DNA of 64,000 nt from Pelagomonas calceolata (lineage: Eukaryota), in assembly GCA_918797485.1 (NCBI GenBank), contig CAKKNE010000001.1:2046001-2110000 (forward strand), written 5' to 3'. Position 1 is the stretch's first letter; every line of letters begins with the position of its first letter. The position numbers were made by a program, and so were the translations under genes. Below the pieces are notes generated by a model, which saw only the letters and a program-made list of their open reading frames with translations, searched no databases and had not been told where the DNA came from. Shown one piece after another: positions 2,645 to 46,971 of this stretch.

Positions 2645-3119
2645 GGTGGCTCGTCGCTCGTGTTTTTCGTTGTGGGTGCGTGTGCAGCGCTATCAAGGTA
2701 ACCACGTGCGCTGCGGCTGCGGCGCGGTTTCCGGGTCGCGCTGCGCTTTCAAAGTACGCGCGCGTCGCGAGCGGCGCGGTTTCGCAGGGGTGCTCTCCCT
2801 GGTCTTCTGCTGCTCTGCTGCGGTTGCACCGCACGGCGCAAAAGCAGCGCTCTTTTTTCTAGGTCGCAGTGCTTCGATTTATGCGACGCGCGCCTTTCGC
2901 CGACGATCGATGCCGCTTTTTGGAGTGCCTCTATGGCCGCCCCATCGTCGAGCAGAGGAGAGGCGCCGCCCGAGTGACGCCTCCGCGACGCGTAGCACGC
3001 GCTACGGACCCGTAGTCTACTACTGTATACTTGTAGAAGGGCGGGACTTTAGTGTGAGCTCGCCCGCGGGCCGCGCGCCCGGACGGTATAATCGAGTGAA
3101 TTCGTTGTTAGGCGTCGCG

Positions 3120-38697: not shown

Positions 38698-40058
38698 TCA
38701 CGTGATTGCGTCGAACTGGAACACCTCGTCGAGGATGATCCAGTCCCGGAGCCCGACGTAGAAGAGCGTCCGGAGCGGGATGGACGCCGCCACGACGACT
38801 CCTGTGTACGCGACGCGCAGCGCGGCGCCCGAGAAGAGCGAGCCCTCCGCCGCGACCTCCGCCAGCGTCGCCGCGAGCGCGGGCGGGCCCGATTCCGCGG
38901 CGCCGGGCGCGGTCCGGAGCAGGACGCGCGTCCGCGCGACGTCGAGCGGCGTCGTGAGGAGCGCCGCGACGACCGCGACCGCGACGGTCCGCGCCGTCGC
39001 GTCGAGGACGCCGCCTTTCGTGGGCGTGGTCGCGTCGAGCGCCGCGAGACCCAGGATCCGCAGCAGGCTGTACGGCAGCTCGGCCGCGAAGAGCGTCGGC
39101 CAGCGCCGGAAGCCGACGGCCGCCGCCTCGGCAGTCGTTGTGGCGACCTCCTCGCCGCGCCGCCGGACCTGAGCGCGCGTCGCGAGCACGTCGGCCGGCG
39201 CGCGGACCACGAGCGCCGCCGCCGACGCGGCCGACGCCGAGAGCAGGGCCAGCGCGAGCGGCGGCGGCGCCAGGGGCGCGAGGACCCGCCGCGAGACTTC
39301 GCGCGCGGCGTAGTACGTCGCGGCCGCGGCTGCGCGGGGCACGGAACTGTTGTATTGATGGTGTGGGGCGCGACGCCATCGACGTCGCCTCGACGGCGTG
39401 GAGCGGTACGCCATCGACGCGGCGTCGCCTCGACGGCGCGGAGCGGTACGCCATCGACGTGGTAAAGCGGTACGCCATCGACGCGACCCCAAAAACAGGA
39501 CGCCGAGCGCGCGCGCGCGGCCGCGGACACGGACGGCACGAGGCCCGCGTAGAGGTCCTTCACTTCCCGCGGCTCGATGATGCCGTTGCCGTCGGCGTCG
39601 ATCAACGCGAGCGGGCCCGTGCCCGGGCGCGCCTGTGCCCGCGACTTGAGCGTCGCGAGCGGGTGCAGCGCGGCGACGCGCGCGATCTCCGTCGTGCCTC
39701 CCGCGACGACCGCGGCCAGCGCGAGCTCCGCTTCTGAGACGCGGCGCTCGACGAGACGCGGCGGCCTCAGTGACTTGGGGTAGCCCGCGGGCAGCTGGAT
39801 CTCGCGGAGCTCGTCGCCCGTCTTCGGGTCTATTACGACCTCGGTCAGTAGGTCCTGACGGCGGACAACGACCTTGTTTTTTGCTAGCGCTTCGGTGACG
39901 TTGGTTTTTGGTGGTGGTACCGCGTTCGCGGCCGCAGCGATGATGCCGATGGCGCTGCCGCAGCCGAGGATGTTGCGGCGCGTTTGTCGTGCGCGTGGTG
40001 ATGCGTCGAGCGGTGCGGCTCGGGGCGCGGCGGTGCTGATGAGGAGGAGTCTGAGCAT
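38698..40058 (-). CDS. Mitochondrial carrier (SLC25) family protein, SAM-carrier-like, with organellar leader; intron near 39330-39515
   Basis: Three carrier signatures: HPLATLKSRAQ, APADVLATRAQ and TPLDVARTRVL. Confidence 0.8.
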
Positions 40059-40312
40059 GTGGCGTGGTGCTCGTTGTGAGGCGTTACGTGTTTTTTGCAG
40101 CGCGCATGGTACCGGTGCGCCACTATGCGTTTTTTGCGTTTTTCTCCGCCTGAAGGCGCTCGTTTTGCAGCCGGCTTCGCGAGGTGCGGCTCTGAGCTTC
40201 CTATTTTGCGTTTTTGCGAGTTTTGGCCGCGAAGGCCGCAGCTTTATCTCCGCTGCACGGGTCAAATCATAACAAAAAAGGTCAAACACAGATCACGGGT
40301 TTTTCTTAGCGC

Positions 40313-40324
40313 TAATAAATATAG
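40313..40324 (+). promoter_or_regulatory. TATA-like element upstream of the permuted tRNA
   Basis: TAATAAATATAG about 25-36 bp before the 3' half. Confidence 0.45.
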
Positions 40325-40348
40325 AAAAAAAAAACATCTTTGCCGGTT

Positions 40349-40427
40349 TTCGAGTGGTCATCAGTTCGATCCTGGTTTCGTCCTTATCTATGGACGAATA
40401 GCTCAGTGGCAGAGCGCTCGATTGCAG
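40349..40427 (+). tRNA. trnC-GCA: Circularly permuted tRNA-Cys(GCA): 3' half 40349-40384, 7-nt spacer, 5' half 40392-40427
   Basis: Acceptor GGACGAA/TTCGTCC (7/7), D arm GCTC/GAGC, anticodon stem CTCGA/TCGAG (5/5), T arm ATCAG-TTCGATC-CTGGT, discriminator U73, T9 terminator at 40430. Confidence 0.9.
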
Positions 40428-40429
40428 GC

Positions 40430-40438
40430 TTTTTTTTT
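40430..40438 (+). terminator. Pol III oligo-T terminator of the permuted tRNA-Cys
   Basis: T9 run starting 3 nt after tRNA position 37. Confidence 0.75.
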
Positions 40439-41008
40439 GCTTTTTTGGACACTACTGGACTAGACTATCATCCTGAACGAGTTTGGCTAACGTACAGTAC
40501 CCTTGGTATGTGACAAGAGCCACCGACGACGACGCCACCGCCGGAAACGCAAAAGAAGGACAGCCAAACCACCACAAACCCAAACAACGAGCTGAAGCCA
40601 GACCCTCGTGAGGTGCAGATTGATGCTACAGAACAAACTGGCCCATAAAAGTTTGGGAAAATGTTGAACCGCCCGCGCGTGTCTCCGACCATATTTCCTA
40701 CAGGTACATCGACGACATCGACGCCCCCAAGGTCGCTCATTTGTTTTGTCAAGTGGGCAAGTAGCTACTGAAAAGAGGCACACGCTACTCTAGAGCTAGA
40801 CACCGCGCATGCTGAATCATGAAATTAGTGTGTTACGGCCGCTAGCCTTGGGCTTTGCGGCGCGATGCGGGCGTGATGCGGGCGCACTGGCACGGATAGA
40901 TCAAGCAATAATTCATAAAATTTGCCGTGTGCCCGCTGCCGCCGACTCCGGCATTTATAGCGGTGTCTCTGATGGCTGTGCCAGCAAGCAGGGCGACCAG
41001 TGCTGCCT

Positions 41009-41995
41009 ATGCCTGACTGGAAAGATCGCTCGAACCCCCAGTTCGGCCGGCGGCGCGCTGTCGCCAGGCGGCAGGGCGCGGTCCGGGTCCGGCCGGGAAG
41101 CGCGTGGCAGCGGGCCCTCGCGGTCGCGCGCGAGCGTCAGCCGCGGCACTTTGCCGAGTGGCAAGCATCGGATGCAGTGTGCCACCGCCGCCGCGCCATC
41201 GACTTCCGCGCGCTCCCGCGGTCGTGCGATCCGCTTTGGGGCGGCGGCGTGCCGCCGATCCGGGCCTGGCGGAAGCGGCGCCAGATCGAGAACGTCCTGG
41301 GGCCGCTCGCAGAGCTGACGGCGCTATTGAAGCGACCGGCGCACATCGTCGACTTCTGTGCCTCGAGCGGCCACGTCGCGCTGCCGGCCGCCGCCGTGCT
41401 GAAGGGCGTCACCGTCGAGATCAACGACCTGCGCGAGCGGCCGATCGACATCGCGCGCGAACGCATCGCCGCGCTGCCCCCGGCCCTGCGCGCTCGTTGC
41501 ACGGCCCGCGTCGGTTCCACGGAGACCCATACTGGGCCCTTCGACATCGGCGTGGCGCTCCACGCCTGCGGCGTGGCGACGGACGTGGTGCTGGAGACCT
41601 GCCTGCGCCGCCGCGCGGCCTTCGTGCTCGTCCCGTGCTGCGTCGGCCGGCTCGCGCAGCGGGCGAACAGAGGGCGGAACGCCCGGTCGAGTCTGCCGAA
41701 GACGGAGGCCTTCGCCGCGTGTTTCGATTTACCCAAGTCGGCGGTCTGGCGCGGGGCCCTCAGCTCGGACGAGGCCAAGGCGCTCGCGCGCGCGGGCGAC
41801 TGCACGGCCCGCGACAAGTTGACGGCGGACGACCGGGAGCGTCGCGCCTGCAAGACGGTGATCGACGGCGACCGCCTCGCGCTCGCCGCGGAGCGCGGCT
41901 ACACGGTCTCGCACTTTTTGATGCGCCCGTTCGGCATCACGCCGAAGAACGATGTTATTGTAGGGTACCCGTCCGAGTGGAGGAGTCCAGTCTGA
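41009..41995 (+). CDS. GSTCD-like class I SAM methyltransferase (Methyltransf_32-like), copy 1
   Basis: IVDFCASSGHV, FDIGVALHACGVATD, VPCCVG and TPKNDVIVG. Confidence 0.8.
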   Translation: MPDWKDRSNPQFGRRRAVARRQGAVRVRPGSAWQRALAVARERQPRHFAEWQASDAVCHRRRAIDFRALPRSCDPLWGGGVPPIRAWRKRRQIENVLGPLAELTALLKRPAHIVDFCASSGHVALPAAAVLKGVTVEINDLRERPIDIARERIAALPPALRARCTARVGSTETHTGPFDIGVALHACGVATDVVLETCLRRRAAFVLVPCCVGRLAQRANRGRNARSSLPKTEAFAACFDLPKSAVWRGALSSDEAKALARAGDCTARDKLTADDRERRACKTVIDGDRLALAAERGYTVSHFLMRPFGITPKNDVIVGYPSEWRSPV

Positions 41996-42076
41996 CCGCG
42001 TTTTTTTGTAAGTTGTGTACCACAAACCTTAAATTCCTCCAAACTCCTTCACACGCACGCTAGAAACATGAAAGTC

Positions 42077-42092
42077 AAAAAAAAAGCAAAAA
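42077..42092 (-). terminator. Pol III oligo-T terminator of tRNA-Asn
   Basis: T5 and T9 runs on the minus strand just 3' of the discriminator. Confidence 0.7.
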
Positions 42093-42097
42093 GAACG

Positions 42098-42251
42098 CTC
42101 TCCGTAGTGGGATTGAACTGTCAGAGAATATATTAAAATTTCTCCACTGAAACGGGTATCTATAGATAGATATCACCCAGATTAACAGTCGTATCCTCTG
42201 TTAGAGACTGATGCTCTACCAACTGAGCTGGTCCGTTGAAGAAAACGGAGA
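42098..42251 (-). tRNA. trnN-GTT: tRNA-Asn(GTT) with four non-canonical introns at 8/9, 30/31, 46/47 and 52/53
   Basis: Exons 42251-42244, 42229-42208, 42189-42174, 42150-42145 and 42118-42098 join to 73 nt TCTCCGTTAGCTCAGTTGGTAGAGCATCAGACTGTTAATCTGGGTGTCAGTGGTTCAATCCCACTACGGAGAG; G73 discriminator; oligo-T runs downstream. Confidence 0.9.
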
Positions 42252-42551
42252 CGTGGTAGACACCGATGCGCCTTAGCCGGGTCATTTAATTTCGCGCCTG
42301 TTCAAGTACTTTTTCAAAAAACCCTTTTTCTTGGATTTGACCCTGCCGGTGCGAGTCAAAATCCCCCAATCTCGATAAGGACCCGCGAAGGGGAACGTAA
42401 AAGATCCATAACAACGCGCCGAGTCAGAATCTAGAACGAAAATCGCCGCCAAAAGCGCTGCACACCACTGAGAGCAGCGTCAGCGCTGCCCCACGCCGCA
42501 GGACACGCGCGCTAGCCGAGCGAGCGAATATCAAGCGGCATCACTACGAAA

Positions 42552-43274
42552 ATGGGCCGCAGCACGCGCAACCGCCAGCCCGGCGAGCGAAGGTACCCTC
42601 ACGTGGAGCGAGCGGCGAACGCCGTCAAGCAGCAGCACAACGCTTGGGTCCTCGAAGCAGCGGTAAGGAACGGAGGCGACGTCGTCGCTCTAGATGGCGT
42701 CGACCTGAACACATGCGGAATACTGGTGCGCGGCGGCATCGCGGCGGCGCGCATCCACGTGCCGAACCGGCCGGACTTTGACGCGATCGTGAGCCGGGAA
42801 AGCGACGGCCCTGCGGGCACGGTATACCGTGCGACGGCGCAGGAGTTTTGCGAAGCCTATGCGGCGCTGGCACGGCCGCGGCCGCCCGTACGCACGGTCT
42901 GGCTCGACGTCAACGCGCGCTGGGGGCTGCACGTCGAGCGGGCCGTCCGTGCGCTCGCGCGGTGCGGTTGCGTCGCAGACCTCTTCCTCACGCTCAGTCG
43001 GGGCTACCACGCGCCGCAGCTCCCCGCCCTGCTCGACGCCGTTGAGGCGATCTTCGGCGAGGAGGCGCCAGGCGCCGCGCTGACGCTCGTCGACGAGCAC
43101 ACGGGCGAGTACGGGACGGGCATGATGATCATGCACTGGCGCGTCGCCGAGGGCTGGTGGTGGGAGCGCGCGTGGGCCGCGCGCGCGGCGTCGGCGCCGC
43201 TGGCGGACCGCCTCGCCGCCGAGGGCCCGGAGGCGTTCCGGAAGCCGCGGAACGTGCGGGCGGCTCACGGGTGA
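42552..43274 (+). CDS. Hypothetical protein, possibly a degenerate Rossmann/methyltransferase-like fold
   Basis: 240-aa ORF with alternating beta/alpha pattern (VVALDG, VWLD). Confidence 0.5.
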   Translation: MGRSTRNRQPGERRYPHVERAANAVKQQHNAWVLEAAVRNGGDVVALDGVDLNTCGILVRGGIAAARIHVPNRPDFDAIVSRESDGPAGTVYRATAQEFCEAYAALARPRPPVRTVWLDVNARWGLHVERAVRALARCGCVADLFLTLSRGYHAPQLPALLDAVEAIFGEEAPGAALTLVDEHTGEYGTGMMIMHWRVAEGWWWERAWAARAASAPLADRLAAEGPEAFRKPRNVRAAHG

Positions 43275-43360: not shown

Positions 43361-43478
43361 CTGTAATTTCACCAACACGCCCCGGGCACGGCGACGACGA
43401 CGCACGCTTCTACGACCGGCTGTAATTTCACCAACACGCCCCGGGCACGGCGACGACGACGCACGCTTCTACGACCGG
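43361..43478. repeat. Perfect 2 x 59-bp tandem duplication
   Basis: Identical unit CTGTAATTTCACCAACACGCCCCGGG...TACGACCGG at 43361 and 43420. Confidence 0.9.
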
Positions 43479-43686
43479 CAGCAAGCTTACGTACACGCTC
43501 GCGGGGGATAGCTCGCCGCCACCGCCCCCGCAACCCGAATTGGCTATAGCCATTTGTAATTTCAGTGCAAAGACACAAAGACACTACCCGCAAGCAAGCA
43601 AGCGGATGGAATGGCCGTGGACTCGCCCCGGGTCTACTATGTGTAGGGAACATCGGAATACCAAGCAGTAAAATTGTATTCGTGCC

Positions 43687-45298: not shown

Positions 45299-45587
45299 CG
45301 AGTCCCCCGGCCTAAGTTCTCGTCTATAGTCATTGGGAAGCTTTTTGACATCAAAAGCTCGTAGAACACGCTCGCGGGGGATAGCTCCCCCGAAACCCCT
45401 CCCTAGGCGCGTGCCCCCGCAACCCGAATTGATCGAGCGCCCGCAGGCGCAAGCGCACGTCGCAGAGGATACCTTGTCGTAAGAGGTCGACGGCGAGCGC
45501 GACCTCGTGTAGGACAAACGCCGCACAGACAGAACCCATAGCGTATGGTGCGCGCACGTAAGTGCGCGCGCGTAGATAAAACAACAT

Positions 45588-46571
45588 TTAAGCTCTACAC
45601 CACTCAGACGGGTACCCAACGATGACGTCGTTCTTCGGCGTGATGCCGAAGGGGCGCATCACGAAGTGCGAGACCGTGTAGCCCCGCTCCGCTGCGAGCG
45701 CGAGGCGGTCGCCGTCGATCACCGTCTTGCAGGCGCGCCGCTCCCGGTCGTCCGCCGTCAACTGGTCGCGGGCCGTGCAGTCGCCCGCGCGCGCGAGCGC
45801 CTTGGCCTCGTCCGAGCTGAGGGCCCCGCGCCAGACCGCCGACTTGGGTAAATCGAAACAAGCGGCGAAGGCCTCCGTCTTCGGCAGGCTCGACCGGGCG
45901 TTCCGCCCTCTGTTCGCCCGCTGCGCGAGCCGGCCGACGCAGCACGGGACGAGCACGAAGGCCGCGCGGCGGCGCAGGCAGGTCTCCAGCACCACGTCCG
46001 TCGCCACGCCGCAGGCGTGGAGCGCCACGCCGATGTCGAAGGGCCCAGTATGGCTCTCCGTGGAACCGACGCGGGCCGTGCAGCGAGCGCGCAGGGCCGG
46101 GGGCAGCGCGGCGATGCGTTCGCGCGCGATGTCGATCGGCCGCTCGCGCAGATCGTTGATCTCGACGGTGACGCCCTTCAGCACGGCGGCGGCCGGCAGC
46201 GCGACGTGGCCGCTCGACGCGCAGAAGTCGACGATGTGCGCCGGTCGCTTCAATAGCGCCGTCAGCTCCGCGAGTGGCCCCAGGACGTTCTCGATCTGGC
46301 GCCGCTTCCGCCAGGCCCGGATCGGCGGCACGCCGCCGCCCCAAAGCGGATCGCACGACCGCGGGAGCGCGCGGAAGTCGATGGCGCGGCGGCGGTGGCA
46401 CACTGCATCCGATGCTTGCCACTCGTCAAAGTGCCGCGGCCGACGCTCGCGCGCGACCGCGAGGGCCCGCTGCCACGCACTTGCCGGCCGGACCCGGACC
46501 GCGCCCTGCCGCCTGGCGACAGCGCGCCGCCGGCCGAACTGGGGGTTCGAGCGATCCTTCCAGTCAGGCAT
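45588..46571 (-). CDS. GSTCD-like methyltransferase, copy 2 (inverted near-identical paralogue)
   Basis: Protein almost identical to the one at 41009-41995. Confidence 0.8.
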   Translation of the reverse strand: MPDWKDRSNPQFGRRRAVARRQGAVRVRPASAWQRALAVARERRPRHFDEWQASDAVCHRRRAIDFRALPRSCDPLWGGGVPPIRAWRKRRQIENVLGPLAELTALLKRPAHIVDFCASSGHVALPAAAVLKGVTVEINDLRERPIDIARERIAALPPALRARCTARVGSTESHTGPFDIGVALHACGVATDVVLETCLRRRAAFVLVPCCVGRLAQRANRGRNARSSLPKTEAFAACFDLPKSAVWRGALSSDEAKALARAGDCTARDQLTADDRERRACKTVIDGDRLALAAERGYTVSHFVMRPFGITPKNDVIVGYPSEWCRA

Positions 46572-46971
46572 AGGCAGCAGTGGTCGCCCTGCTTGCTGGC
46601 ACAGCCGCCCCCAGAGACCGCTATAAATGCCGGCGTCGGCGGCAGCTGGCAGACGGCATATTTATGAGTGATTGATTTGATCTATCAGTACCAGTGCGCG
46701 CCCGAAATCACGCCCTCCCTCCCGCCAAGCCCTCGCAACCGCGCTAGCGGAAGTAAGACACTAGCGGAGCAAAAGCGTCTCGACGTCATAGGTGCCAAGC
46801 CGGCTGCAAGGGTAGTGGTAAGCGCAGTTGCGTGATCAACGGACACCTCCGTGCTGCGACGCTCGACGCTGGTGCGCCAACTTACTGCGCGCGCCTTCAG
46901 TCGGCGATTTTAGCTAGTCTAGTTGGTCAAAGCAAGCAAGCCGCCGCGGCGTGCGCATCGGTGCGCCGGCC

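What the first reader, a model, noticed from the sequence alone, without database searches (positions are those of the whole stretch)
40349..42251. Both tRNA genes found in the window are disrupted, implying a broad-specificity tRNA splicing system
The only two tRNA genes I could find are 1.7 kb apart, convergent, and both need non-standard processing. In tRNA-Asn, intron 1 sits at the start of the A box and intron 4 at the start of the B box. In tRNA-Cys the B box precedes the A box. Inference: transcription relies on upstream TATA-like elements (40313-40324; ATTAAAT on the minus strand near 42284-42290), and the host TSEN endonuclease reads BHB structure rather than measuring from the mature body. 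Much of this lineage's tRNA set may be hidden from standard annotation.
Basis: inference. Interest (0 to 1): 0.85.

Follow-up and report, generated by a model that had tools for sequence, protein, structure and literature searches.

The report
Four-intron and back-to-front algal tRNAs
A marine alga, likely a pelagophyte, has one tRNA gene written back to front and another cut by four short introns, while close relatives encode the very same tRNA back to front with five mostly different introns, which likely means that its splicing enzyme cuts by RNA shape at almost any position.

Summary
Confirmed and extended. The window (pelagophyte by named relatives, likely Pelagomonas-like) holds a circularly permuted tRNA-Cys(GCA) (37/38) and a tRNA-Asn(GTT) with four ectopic introns (8/9, 30/31, 46/47, 52/53), each with a bulge-helix-bulge (BHB); standard tools miss both. 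Two related metagenome contigs carry, at the same site, a permuted Asn gene with five introns (one shared) that gives the identical 73-nt tRNA. One contig from a probable RNA run lacks exactly intron 3 (spliced RNA or allele). The papers I could search give three introns as the maximum and report no disrupted tRNA in stramenopiles. Permuted Cys occurs in 59 of 66 metagenome loci, two tied to diatoms; the scan had noted diatom permuted Cys and giant-virus ectopic introns before on other DNA, but not this pelagophyte case. A BHB-reading splicing endonuclease is inferred, not shown. The TATA idea is weak: A- and B-box cores stay intact, and a different upstream element precedes both genes. Whether most of the tRNA set is disrupted could not be tested (no genome held). 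New variant of a known kind.

The parts
40280..40304 (+). Conserved upstream element (GGTCAAA-N11-GGGTTTT type) before tRNA-Cys; likely Pol III upstream promoter element
   Evidence: 2 matches in 64 kb (expected 0.01), one before each tRNA gene; kept in L190
40313..40324 (+).
   Evidence: not conserved in L190
40342..40348 (+). Leader end that pairs with anticodon loop 32-35 (relaxed BHB, 3 of 4 pairs, 1 Watson-Crick)
   Evidence: same leader in L184 and L190
40349..40384 (+). tRNA-Cys(GCA) 3' half, positions 38-73
40385..40391 (+). 7-nt intervening sequence closing the acceptor stem (10 nt in L184/L190)
40392..40427 (+). tRNA-Cys(GCA) 5' half, positions 1-37
40430..40446 (+). T-run, likely Pol III terminator of tRNA-Cys
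41009..41995 (+). GSTCD-like methyltransferase gene between the two tRNA genes; passenger, not part of the system
   Evidence: 97% inverted copy at 45595-46606; only a 3' remnant in L184 and L190
42077..42092 (-). T-run, likely Pol III terminator of tRNA-Asn
42098..42118 (-). tRNA-Asn exon 5 (53-73)
42119..42144 (-). Asn intron 4, 52/53, 26 nt, BHB 4/4 helix plus 4-bp outer helix
42145..42150 (-). tRNA-Asn exon 4 (47-52), 6 nt, the minimum that holds one BHB half
42151..42173 (-). Asn intron 3, 46/47, 23 nt, BHB 4/4 plus 6 bp; the most stable module; exactly missing in one contig of run X3
42174..42189 (-). tRNA-Asn exon 3 (31-46) with anticodon GTT
42190..42207 (-). Asn intron 2, 30/31, 18 nt, relaxed BHB 3/4 plus 4 bp
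42208..42229 (-). tRNA-Asn exon 2 (9-30), holds the A-box core
42230..42243 (-). Asn intron 1, 8/9, 14 nt, BHB 4/4 plus 1 bp; the only intron shared with L184/L190
42244..42251 (-). tRNA-Asn exon 1 (1-8)
42284..42290 (-).
   Evidence: only loosely matched in L184/L190
42318..42342 (-). Conserved upstream element before tRNA-Asn
   Evidence: kept in L184 and L190

Best explanation
The window holds a back-to-front tRNA-Cys gene and a tRNA-Asn gene split by four introns that each fold into a bulge-helix-bulge, and both are likely working genes whose precursors would be cut by the host tRNA-splicing endonuclease reading local RNA shape rather than measuring from the folded tRNA. Shown: layout, BHB pairing, conservation of the mature sequence across different layouts. 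Inferred: Pol III makes one precursor per gene from a conserved upstream element (probably with help from the intact A- and B-box cores) to the T-run; each Asn BHB is built from its own intron and the six preceding exon bases, so the introns can be cut independently, the most stable (46/47) likely first; ligation, RNase P, tRNase Z and CCA addition finish the tRNA. For Cys the two ends would be cut and joined at 37/38 to a circle, and the 7-nt spacer then removed, as shown for C. merolae. Because the enzyme tolerates almost any position, introns are gained and lost and the gene flips between linear and permuted form among close relatives while the product stays the same.
For: Rebuilt sequences are perfect cloverleaves. 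BHB central helices 4/4, 3/4, 4/4, 4/4 with shuffle frequencies of 0.065% or less each. L184 and L190, syntenic and 84-91% identical in flanking DNA, carry a permuted Asn gene with five introns (43/44, 50/51, 66/67, 8/9, 22/23; helices 4,3,4,4,4 of 4; junction 4/4) whose spliced product equals the window's at 73 of 73 bases. Between L184 and L190 all 4 substitutions and 1 indel in the gene fall in introns, two of them a compensatory pair. One contig of run X3 lacks exactly 42151-42173 while keeping intron 4; one contig of X1 spans 42057-42263 unspliced as an island; the letter differences shown for that sample in the neighbouring gene are all variants of the window's own second gene copy, and intron 3 is the most stable module (-7.1 against -2.0, -1.3, +1.1 kcal/mol). 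Permuted Cys with full stems in 59 of 66 metagenome loci, with many stem covariations and a 4/4 junction helix in 34 of 44 distinct genes (shifted controls: 6, 0, 0, 0, 0 of 44). Same processing route shown experimentally in C. merolae (PMC3978253, PMC3728597).
Against: No mature or circular tRNA was observed: poly(A) raw reads of 4 runs (one sample, 6-12% of each read) do not cover either gene, and no contig of the 4 runs laid covers Cys. The RNA status of X1-X3 is the tool's guess, and the intron-less contig could be an allele. The window's own Cys junction is weak (3 of 4 pairs, 1 Watson-Crick, C-C mismatch). The modules of introns 2-4 fold no better than dinucleotide shuffles (z -0.21 to -0.45) and the lowest-energy folds differ from the ideal BHB. 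TSEN and TFIIIC subunits could not be examined. The upstream element was defined after the fact and both genes lie head to head with mRNA genes that it could serve instead.
Confidence: 0.82

Rival explanations
1. Both genes work, but they are exceptions: permuted Cys is an old ochrophyte trait, the Asn gene is one hypervariable locus, and most other tRNA genes of this alga are conventional.
For: In diatom-type loci the 12 full-length Ala and Leu genes beside permuted Cys are intronless and linear. Only two isotypes were seen in the host lineage. In giant-virus bin G001 only 3 of the tRNA genes examined, all on one contig, have ectopic introns.
Against: Nine different intron or junction sites occur in this one Asn gene across four versions, which points to a genome-wide tolerance. 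A giant virus whose tRNA-Asn matches the window's over the first 43 bases also has ectopic introns in Tyr and Leu.
Confidence: 0.35
2. The loci are pseudogenes or decayed copies, and the inserts are random or mobile-element debris.
For: No mature tRNA was seen; the region is unstable (duplicated and truncated methyltransferase gene).
Against: Mature sequence unchanged (73/73, 71/72) while introns, spacer and flanks diverge; every insert carries a BHB at the exact register; terminators and upstream element are kept.
Confidence: 0.04
3. Transcription still depends on TFIIIC binding the internal A and B boxes; the upstream motif belongs to the divergent mRNA genes.
For: None of the nine sites seen in host Asn genes lies within 9-21 or 53-65 (by rough arithmetic about 1 in 20 by chance). 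Both genes are head to head with mRNA starts. The element's distance to the first tRNA base varies from 69 to 91 nt.
Against: The boxes are in reverse order in Cys and in the L184/L190 Asn gene. The element occurs only twice in 64 kb, each time in the tRNA's orientation, though the window holds many mRNA genes, and in 5 of 5 upstream regions available.
Confidence: 0.3
4. The ectopic introns are removed by an enzyme other than the standard TSEN (a separate or virus-derived endonuclease).
For: Giant viruses carry a matching tRNA-Asn with an intron at 43/44, the site used in L184/L190, so tRNA genes move between virus and host.
Against: No tRNA intron endonuclease domain (PF01974) in bin G001, 85% complete; BHB geometry is the TSEN/EndA substrate; non-Amorphea eukaryotes are proposed to have archaeal-like (alpha-beta)2 TSEN (PMC10485636, section 6).
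Confidence: 0.06

Closest known systems
[quoted passage not shown] 2013, PMC3728597; review PMC3978253)
   Same: Permuted genes and ectopic, multiple BHB introns in one nuclear genome; some genes both permuted and intronic; missed by tRNAscan; T-run terminators.
   Different: C. merolae has at most three introns per gene and one intron in permuted genes; its sites are D-stem, D-loop, 37/38, variable arm, T-stem, T-loop. Here four introns (five plus permutation in relatives), sites at 8/9, 30/31, 43/44 and 66/67 included, in a stramenopile, with box cores spared and a non-TATA upstream element.
Type II (37/38) permuted tRNA-Cys(GCA) of Ostreococcus lucimarinus, O. tauri and Micromonas pusilla (Table 1 of PMC3978253, after Maruyama et al. 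2010)
   Same: Same isotype, same junction, short spacer, relaxed BHB. The Micromonas gene (spacer 12) was recovered by my search as a positive control.
   Different: The window's Cys shares U32-U38 and the variable-loop type with the diatom-type genes (41 of 44 distinct genes) and is 45-48/72 identical to the three divergent GC-rich types against 50-58/72 to the diatom type, so it likely has a separate, ochrophyte origin.
Multi-intron tRNA genes of Thermoproteales archaea and the Guillardia theta nucleomorph (PMC8450103, PMC4090602)
   Same: Several non-canonical introns per gene; intron sites differ among relatives.
   Different: Reported maximum three introns; these are archaeal or nucleomorph genes, not a host stramenopile nucleus.
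Non-canonical tRNA introns of Chondrus crispus (PlantRNA 2.0, 10.1101/2021.12.21.473619) and permuted tRNAs of Auxenochlorella (PMC12633428)
   Same: Algal nuclear tRNA genes hidden from standard annotation; splicing confirmed by RT-PCR in Chondrus.
   Different: Chondrus introns sit at two fixed ectopic sites (20/21, 58/59), at most two per gene; here sites are many and change between close relatives.

Membership tests
Type II circularly permuted tRNA gene | 3' half upstream of 5' half, joined by a short intervening sequence across the acceptor stem | tested here: met
   36 + 7 + 36 nt, 7/7 acceptor pairs
Type II circularly permuted tRNA gene | Junction at 37/38 restoring a 7-nt anticodon loop and canonical cloverleaf | tested here: met
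   ARAGORN call; best register; helix register fixed in 34 of 44 relatives
Type II circularly permuted tRNA gene | Leader and trailer form a BHB or relaxed BHB | tested here: inconclusive
   window 3 of 4 pairs, 1 Watson-Crick, 1-bp outer helix; 4 of 4 in 34 of 44 distinct relatives
Type II circularly permuted tRNA gene | T-run terminator after the 5' half, no encoded CCA | tested here: met
Type II circularly permuted tRNA gene | Maturation through a circular intermediate | not testable with these tools
   no reads or contigs on the Cys gene
Ectopic multi-intron BHB tRNA gene (C. merolae / crenarchaeal type) | Introns outside 37/38 whose removal gives a canonical tRNA | tested here: met
   identical product from a different layout in L184/L190
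Ectopic multi-intron BHB tRNA gene (C. merolae / crenarchaeal type) | Each exon-intron junction forms a 4-bp helix between two 3-nt bulges | tested here: met
   helices 4/4, 3/4, 4/4, 4/4; shuffle control; but not the lowest-energy fold
Ectopic multi-intron BHB tRNA gene (C. merolae / crenarchaeal type) | Introns are spliced out in vivo | tested here: inconclusive
   one contig of a probable RNA run lacks exactly intron 3; allele not excluded; introns 1, 2, 4 not seen spliced
Ectopic multi-intron BHB tRNA gene (C. merolae / crenarchaeal type) | Endonuclease with reduced or archaeal-like subunit set; TFIIIC box-binding subunits missing | not testable with these tools
   no genome held
YrlA Y RNA-like (Rfam RF02553) | Reaches the family's gathering score | tested here: not met
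   33.7 bits against 69 over 40330-40447; reflects the permuted T-arm/D-arm order only

The most novel reading that the evidence does not exclude
Pelagophytes, among the most abundant ocean algae, have the most fragmented tRNA genes known: much of the set is cut by up to five BHB introns or permuted, the layout is rewritten between sister populations without changing the product, a lineage-specific upstream element drives Pol III, and their giant viruses carry host-type intron-bearing tRNA genes that mark the host. The locus would be a live model of tRNA intron gain, loss and permutation.
Probability: 0.45. Interest if true: 0.9.

Novelty: new variant of a known kind. Interest (0 to 1): 0.78.

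Why it matters
It raises the intron count per tRNA gene above the three reported for archaea, C. merolae and nucleomorphs, and extends BHB-disrupted nuclear tRNA genes to stramenopiles. It gives a natural experiment on an open question (how tRNA introns and permuted genes arise): one syntenic gene in linear four-intron, likely five-intron and permuted five-intron forms with one product, in a cultured, abundant alga. It offers a direct test of the proposal that non-Amorphea eukaryotes have an archaeal-like, shape-reading TSEN (PMC10485636). In practice, tRNA annotation of pelagophyte and diatom genomes is incomplete, and ectopic introns in viral tRNAs may help predict hosts.

Tried and rejected
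No whole genome is held, so the anticodon inventory and the TSEN/TFIIIC check were not possible. Relaxed ARAGORN settings gave 13 and 46 calls in the window, none matching the two genes' layout. The methyltransferase found no relative in viral contigs. Poly(A) raw reads gave no cover of either gene, which says nothing about tRNA expression; X2 contigs also miss both, and no run covers Cys. The upstream element searched in viral and prokaryote collections gave 1 and 19 matches with no tRNA recognisable downstream; treated as chance. Blind BHB-subset splicing of the viral Asn gene returned many wrong calls; the intron was placed by comparison with the window's product instead. The tree of Cys sequences printed nothing and is not used. 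The atlas search gave only 'Eukaryota'. Of 20 proteins looked up for taxonomy, 13 were in the collection and 2 gave a species. Rejected: YrlA membership; the methyltransferase as part of the system (remnant in both relatives); a conserved TATA box as the promoter in this lineage. Maruyama et al. 2010 is not held and is cited only through reviews.

Full report
Observation. The window gives no tRNA with ARAGORN or Rfam at gathering score. The sequence nevertheless holds two tRNA genes. On the + strand the 3' half of tRNA-Cys(GCA) (40349-40384) precedes a 7-nt spacer and the 5' half (40392-40427), followed by a T-run. On the - strand tRNA-Asn(GTT) (42251-42098) is split into exons of 8, 22, 16, 6 and 21 nt by introns of 14, 18, 23 and 26 nt at 8/9, 30/31, 46/47 and 52/53. 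Both rebuilt sequences are called as ordinary tRNAs with complete stems. A scan for loop and terminator cores found no third gene, with the limit that introns inside those cores would hide one. The only Rfam match at relaxed threshold in 39500-43000 is YrlA at 33.7 bits, far below its cut-off of 69.

Organism. The genes are eukaryotic (UTP20, eIF4G, SNF2 and others). The nearest named relatives of the eIF4G frame are Aureococcus anophagefferens (68-69%), Chrysophaeum taylorii (69%) and Aureoumbra lagunensis (61%), then the oomycete Achlya (42%). GC is 57-74% in 2-kb bins and marine metatranscriptomes hold part of the stretch. I infer a pelagophyte, likely Pelagomonas or close (63% GC in PMC9481584). 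No whole genome is held.

BHB anatomy. With the cut two bases into each 3-nt bulge, the central helices of the Asn introns pair 4/4, 3/4, 4/4 and 4/4, with outer helices of 1, 4, 6 and 4 pairs; where two registers give the same product, only one gives the helix. Shuffled introns reach these values in 0.055%, 0.065%, 0 of 20000 and 0.025% of trials. Each helix uses only the six exon bases before its intron, and no exon is shorter than six, so no intron has to wait for another. The helices compete with the acceptor, anticodon and T stems, so the mature body cannot fold first; this is the basis for inferring a shape-reading endonuclease. Against: modules 2-4 fold no better than dinucleotide shuffles and their lowest-energy folds are not the ideal BHB. 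The window's Cys junction is relaxed (3 of 4 pairs, one Watson-Crick).

Relatives of the locus. One metagenome scan with a permuted-Cys pattern gave 66 loci (three are listed twice). Two, L184 and L190, are syntenic with the window at 84-91% identity. Their Cys gene is permuted, 71/72 identical, with a 10-nt spacer. At the Asn site they carry a permuted gene with five introns, 43/44, 50/51, 66/67 in the 3' half and 8/9, 22/23 in the 5' half, helices 4, 3, 4, 4, 4 of 4, and a 4/4 junction at 37/38; the spliced product equals the window's at all 73 bases. Only the 8/9 intron is shared. Between L184 and L190 the 4 substitutions and 1 indel in the gene all lie in introns, two as a compensatory pair. 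A further relative, run X20 (kind unknown), has a linear version that aligns over 42097-42229 with 19 other letters and an extra 21-nt insert at 37/38; its first intron and 17 unlisted difference rows could not be seen. An unchanged product under three layouts is the strongest evidence of function. Which layout came first is unresolved.

Expression. Poly(A) raw reads of four runs (one sample, 6-12% of each run read) cover the flanking mRNAs but neither tRNA gene. Among contigs of four other runs (RNA status of X1-X3 is the tool's guess), X1 has an isolated contig over 42057-42263 with all introns, and no cover of 40322-40857; X3 has a contig over 41720-42197 that lacks exactly the 23 bases 42151-42173 and keeps intron 4; X2 covers neither gene; none covers Cys. 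The letter differences shown for that sample in the methyltransferase gene all match the window's own second copy, and intron 3 is the most stable module, which fits the order-by-stability seen in C. merolae (PMC3728597). I read this as a likely splicing intermediate; an allele is not excluded.

Breadth of permuted Cys. Of 73 matches in the 66 loci, 65 in 59 loci have full acceptor and anticodon stems; 8 were dropped (L140, L143, L145, L161, L168, L173, L179 and one copy in L185). With the window they give 30 distinct mature sequences with many paired changes in the stems and 44 distinct gene-plus-leader forms, 34 with a 4/4 junction helix against 6, 0, 0, 0, 0 at five shifted registers; 41 of 44 share U32-U38 with the window, which the pattern did not demand at 38. 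Taxonomy rests on three loci: L187 clusters with a Fragilariopsis cylindrus protein, the named species among the best 120 hits of an L162 protein are all diatoms, and L188 clusters with Micromonas pusilla, whose permuted Cys with a 12-nt spacer is published (PMC3978253). The rest are diatom-like by signature and GC only. The 12 full-length Ala and Leu genes beside them are conventional. The pattern was built from the window's gene, so other types are under-counted.

Promoter. In 42 upstream regions of the metagenome loci TTTATA is enriched (14 against 1.5 expected, background inflated by coding DNA), so TATA-like elements fit the diatom type better. In the pelagophyte loci a bipartite element, GGTCAAA-N11-GGGTTTT, lies 69-91 nt upstream in 5 of 5 available regions and occurs only at these two places in 64 kb (expected 0.01; pattern chosen after the fact). 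Both genes are head to head with mRNA genes, so the element could serve those. None of the nine sites in host Asn genes falls inside 9-21 or 53-65, so the internal boxes may still be used.

Viruses. Two giant-virus contigs (L191, L201) have a tRNA-Asn identical to the window's product over the first 43 bases, with a 24-nt 4/4 BHB intron at 43/44, the site and 3' end type of L184/L190; L201 differs only by one compensatory T-stem pair. L201 also has Tyr and Leu(TAA) genes with D-loop and T-arm introns. The other tRNA genes examined in its bin are intronless or have anticodon-loop introns, and no endonuclease domain was found. A pelagophyte host is a guess.

Known systems and novelty. Permuted tRNAs are reported from C. 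merolae, Ostreococcus, Micromonas, the Bigelowiella nucleomorph and Thermofilum (PMC3978253, section 4 part 1 and passages), and Auxenochlorella (PMC12633428, passages); ectopic introns from C. merolae (up to three; PMC3728597, passages), the Guillardia nucleomorph (up to three; PMC4090602, passages), Chondrus (10.1101/2021.12.21.473619, passages) and archaea (up to three; PMC8450103, passages). A 2026 review names no stramenopile case (PMC13578239, passages and part 1 of supplement 1). Ten searches (listings only unless named here) showed no report for pelagophytes or diatoms and none of four or five introns; two pelagophyte genome papers do not contain the word tRNA. Subscription papers, Maruyama et al. 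2010, bioRxiv supplements and tRNA databases could not be seen and may bear on this. Differences in permutation between Ostreococcus species are already in Table 1 of PMC3978253. PMC10485636 (section 6 and passages) proposes archaeal-like TSEN outside Amorphea; PMC13728533 (passages) has no stramenopile data. The scan's notes, read after my own results for the first two, record diatom permuted Cys, giant-virus ectopic introns and a permuted/linear switch in green picoalgae on other DNA but nothing on this genome or on pelagophyte tRNAs.

Verdict. Real, functional with about 0.8 confidence, works like the C. merolae system; new in lineage, intron number and speed of rearrangement. The lineage-wide and enzyme claims remain inferences.

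Noticed in passing
L184:800-979 (+); L190 minus strand, 925-745: Permuted tRNA-Asn with five BHB introns: six cutting sites in one gene, including one inside the 3' acceptor strand (66/67).
   Followed up: yes
L201:1541-1905 (+) and 2948-3023 (-); L191:3001-3097: Giant-virus tRNA-Tyr, tRNA-Leu(TAA) and tRNA-Asn with ectopic BHB introns; Asn is nearly identical to the window's product. A shared hairpin follows the Asn and Ile genes.
   Followed up: partly
window 40974-41985 and 45595-46606: 97% identical inverted duplicate of a GSTCD-like methyltransferase gene (weak TRM13 similarity); both copies appear in poly(A) reads; the copy between the tRNA genes is a remnant in L184 and L190.
   Followed up: partly
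L130, L133, L138, L142, L167, L172, L176 (Ala) and L147 (Leu): A conventional tRNA gene ends only a few bases upstream of the permuted Cys, suggesting a dicistronic unit in which the upstream gene supplies the internal promoter.
   Followed up: no
L132:410-1527; L134; L180: Tandem arrays of permuted Cys genes; ARAGORN joins the 5' half of one copy to the 3' half of the next as a long-intron gene, the intermediate expected in the tandem-duplication model.
   Followed up: no
window 40430-40446 and 42077-42092; metagenome loci: The first T-run after the gene is followed by GC in both window genes and in 22 of 44 distinct permuted Cys genes.
   Followed up: partly
L140:3700-3930; L168; L187:4800-4900: Degenerate partial copies of the permuted Cys gene beside or in place of an intact one.
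   Followed up: no
L332, L333 (bin G001): Viral tRNA genes of Gly, His and others with anticodon-loop introns, isotypes that rarely carry introns (recalled).
   Followed up: no
window 43361-43478: Exact 59-nt tandem duplication in an intergenic region; a short motif near 43490-43540 recurs near 45370-45430.
   Followed up: no
window 40450-40690: Non-coding stretch downstream of Cys kept at about 85-90% in L184/L190; a low-depth X3 contig covers 40548-40715; no Rfam match.
   Followed up: partly
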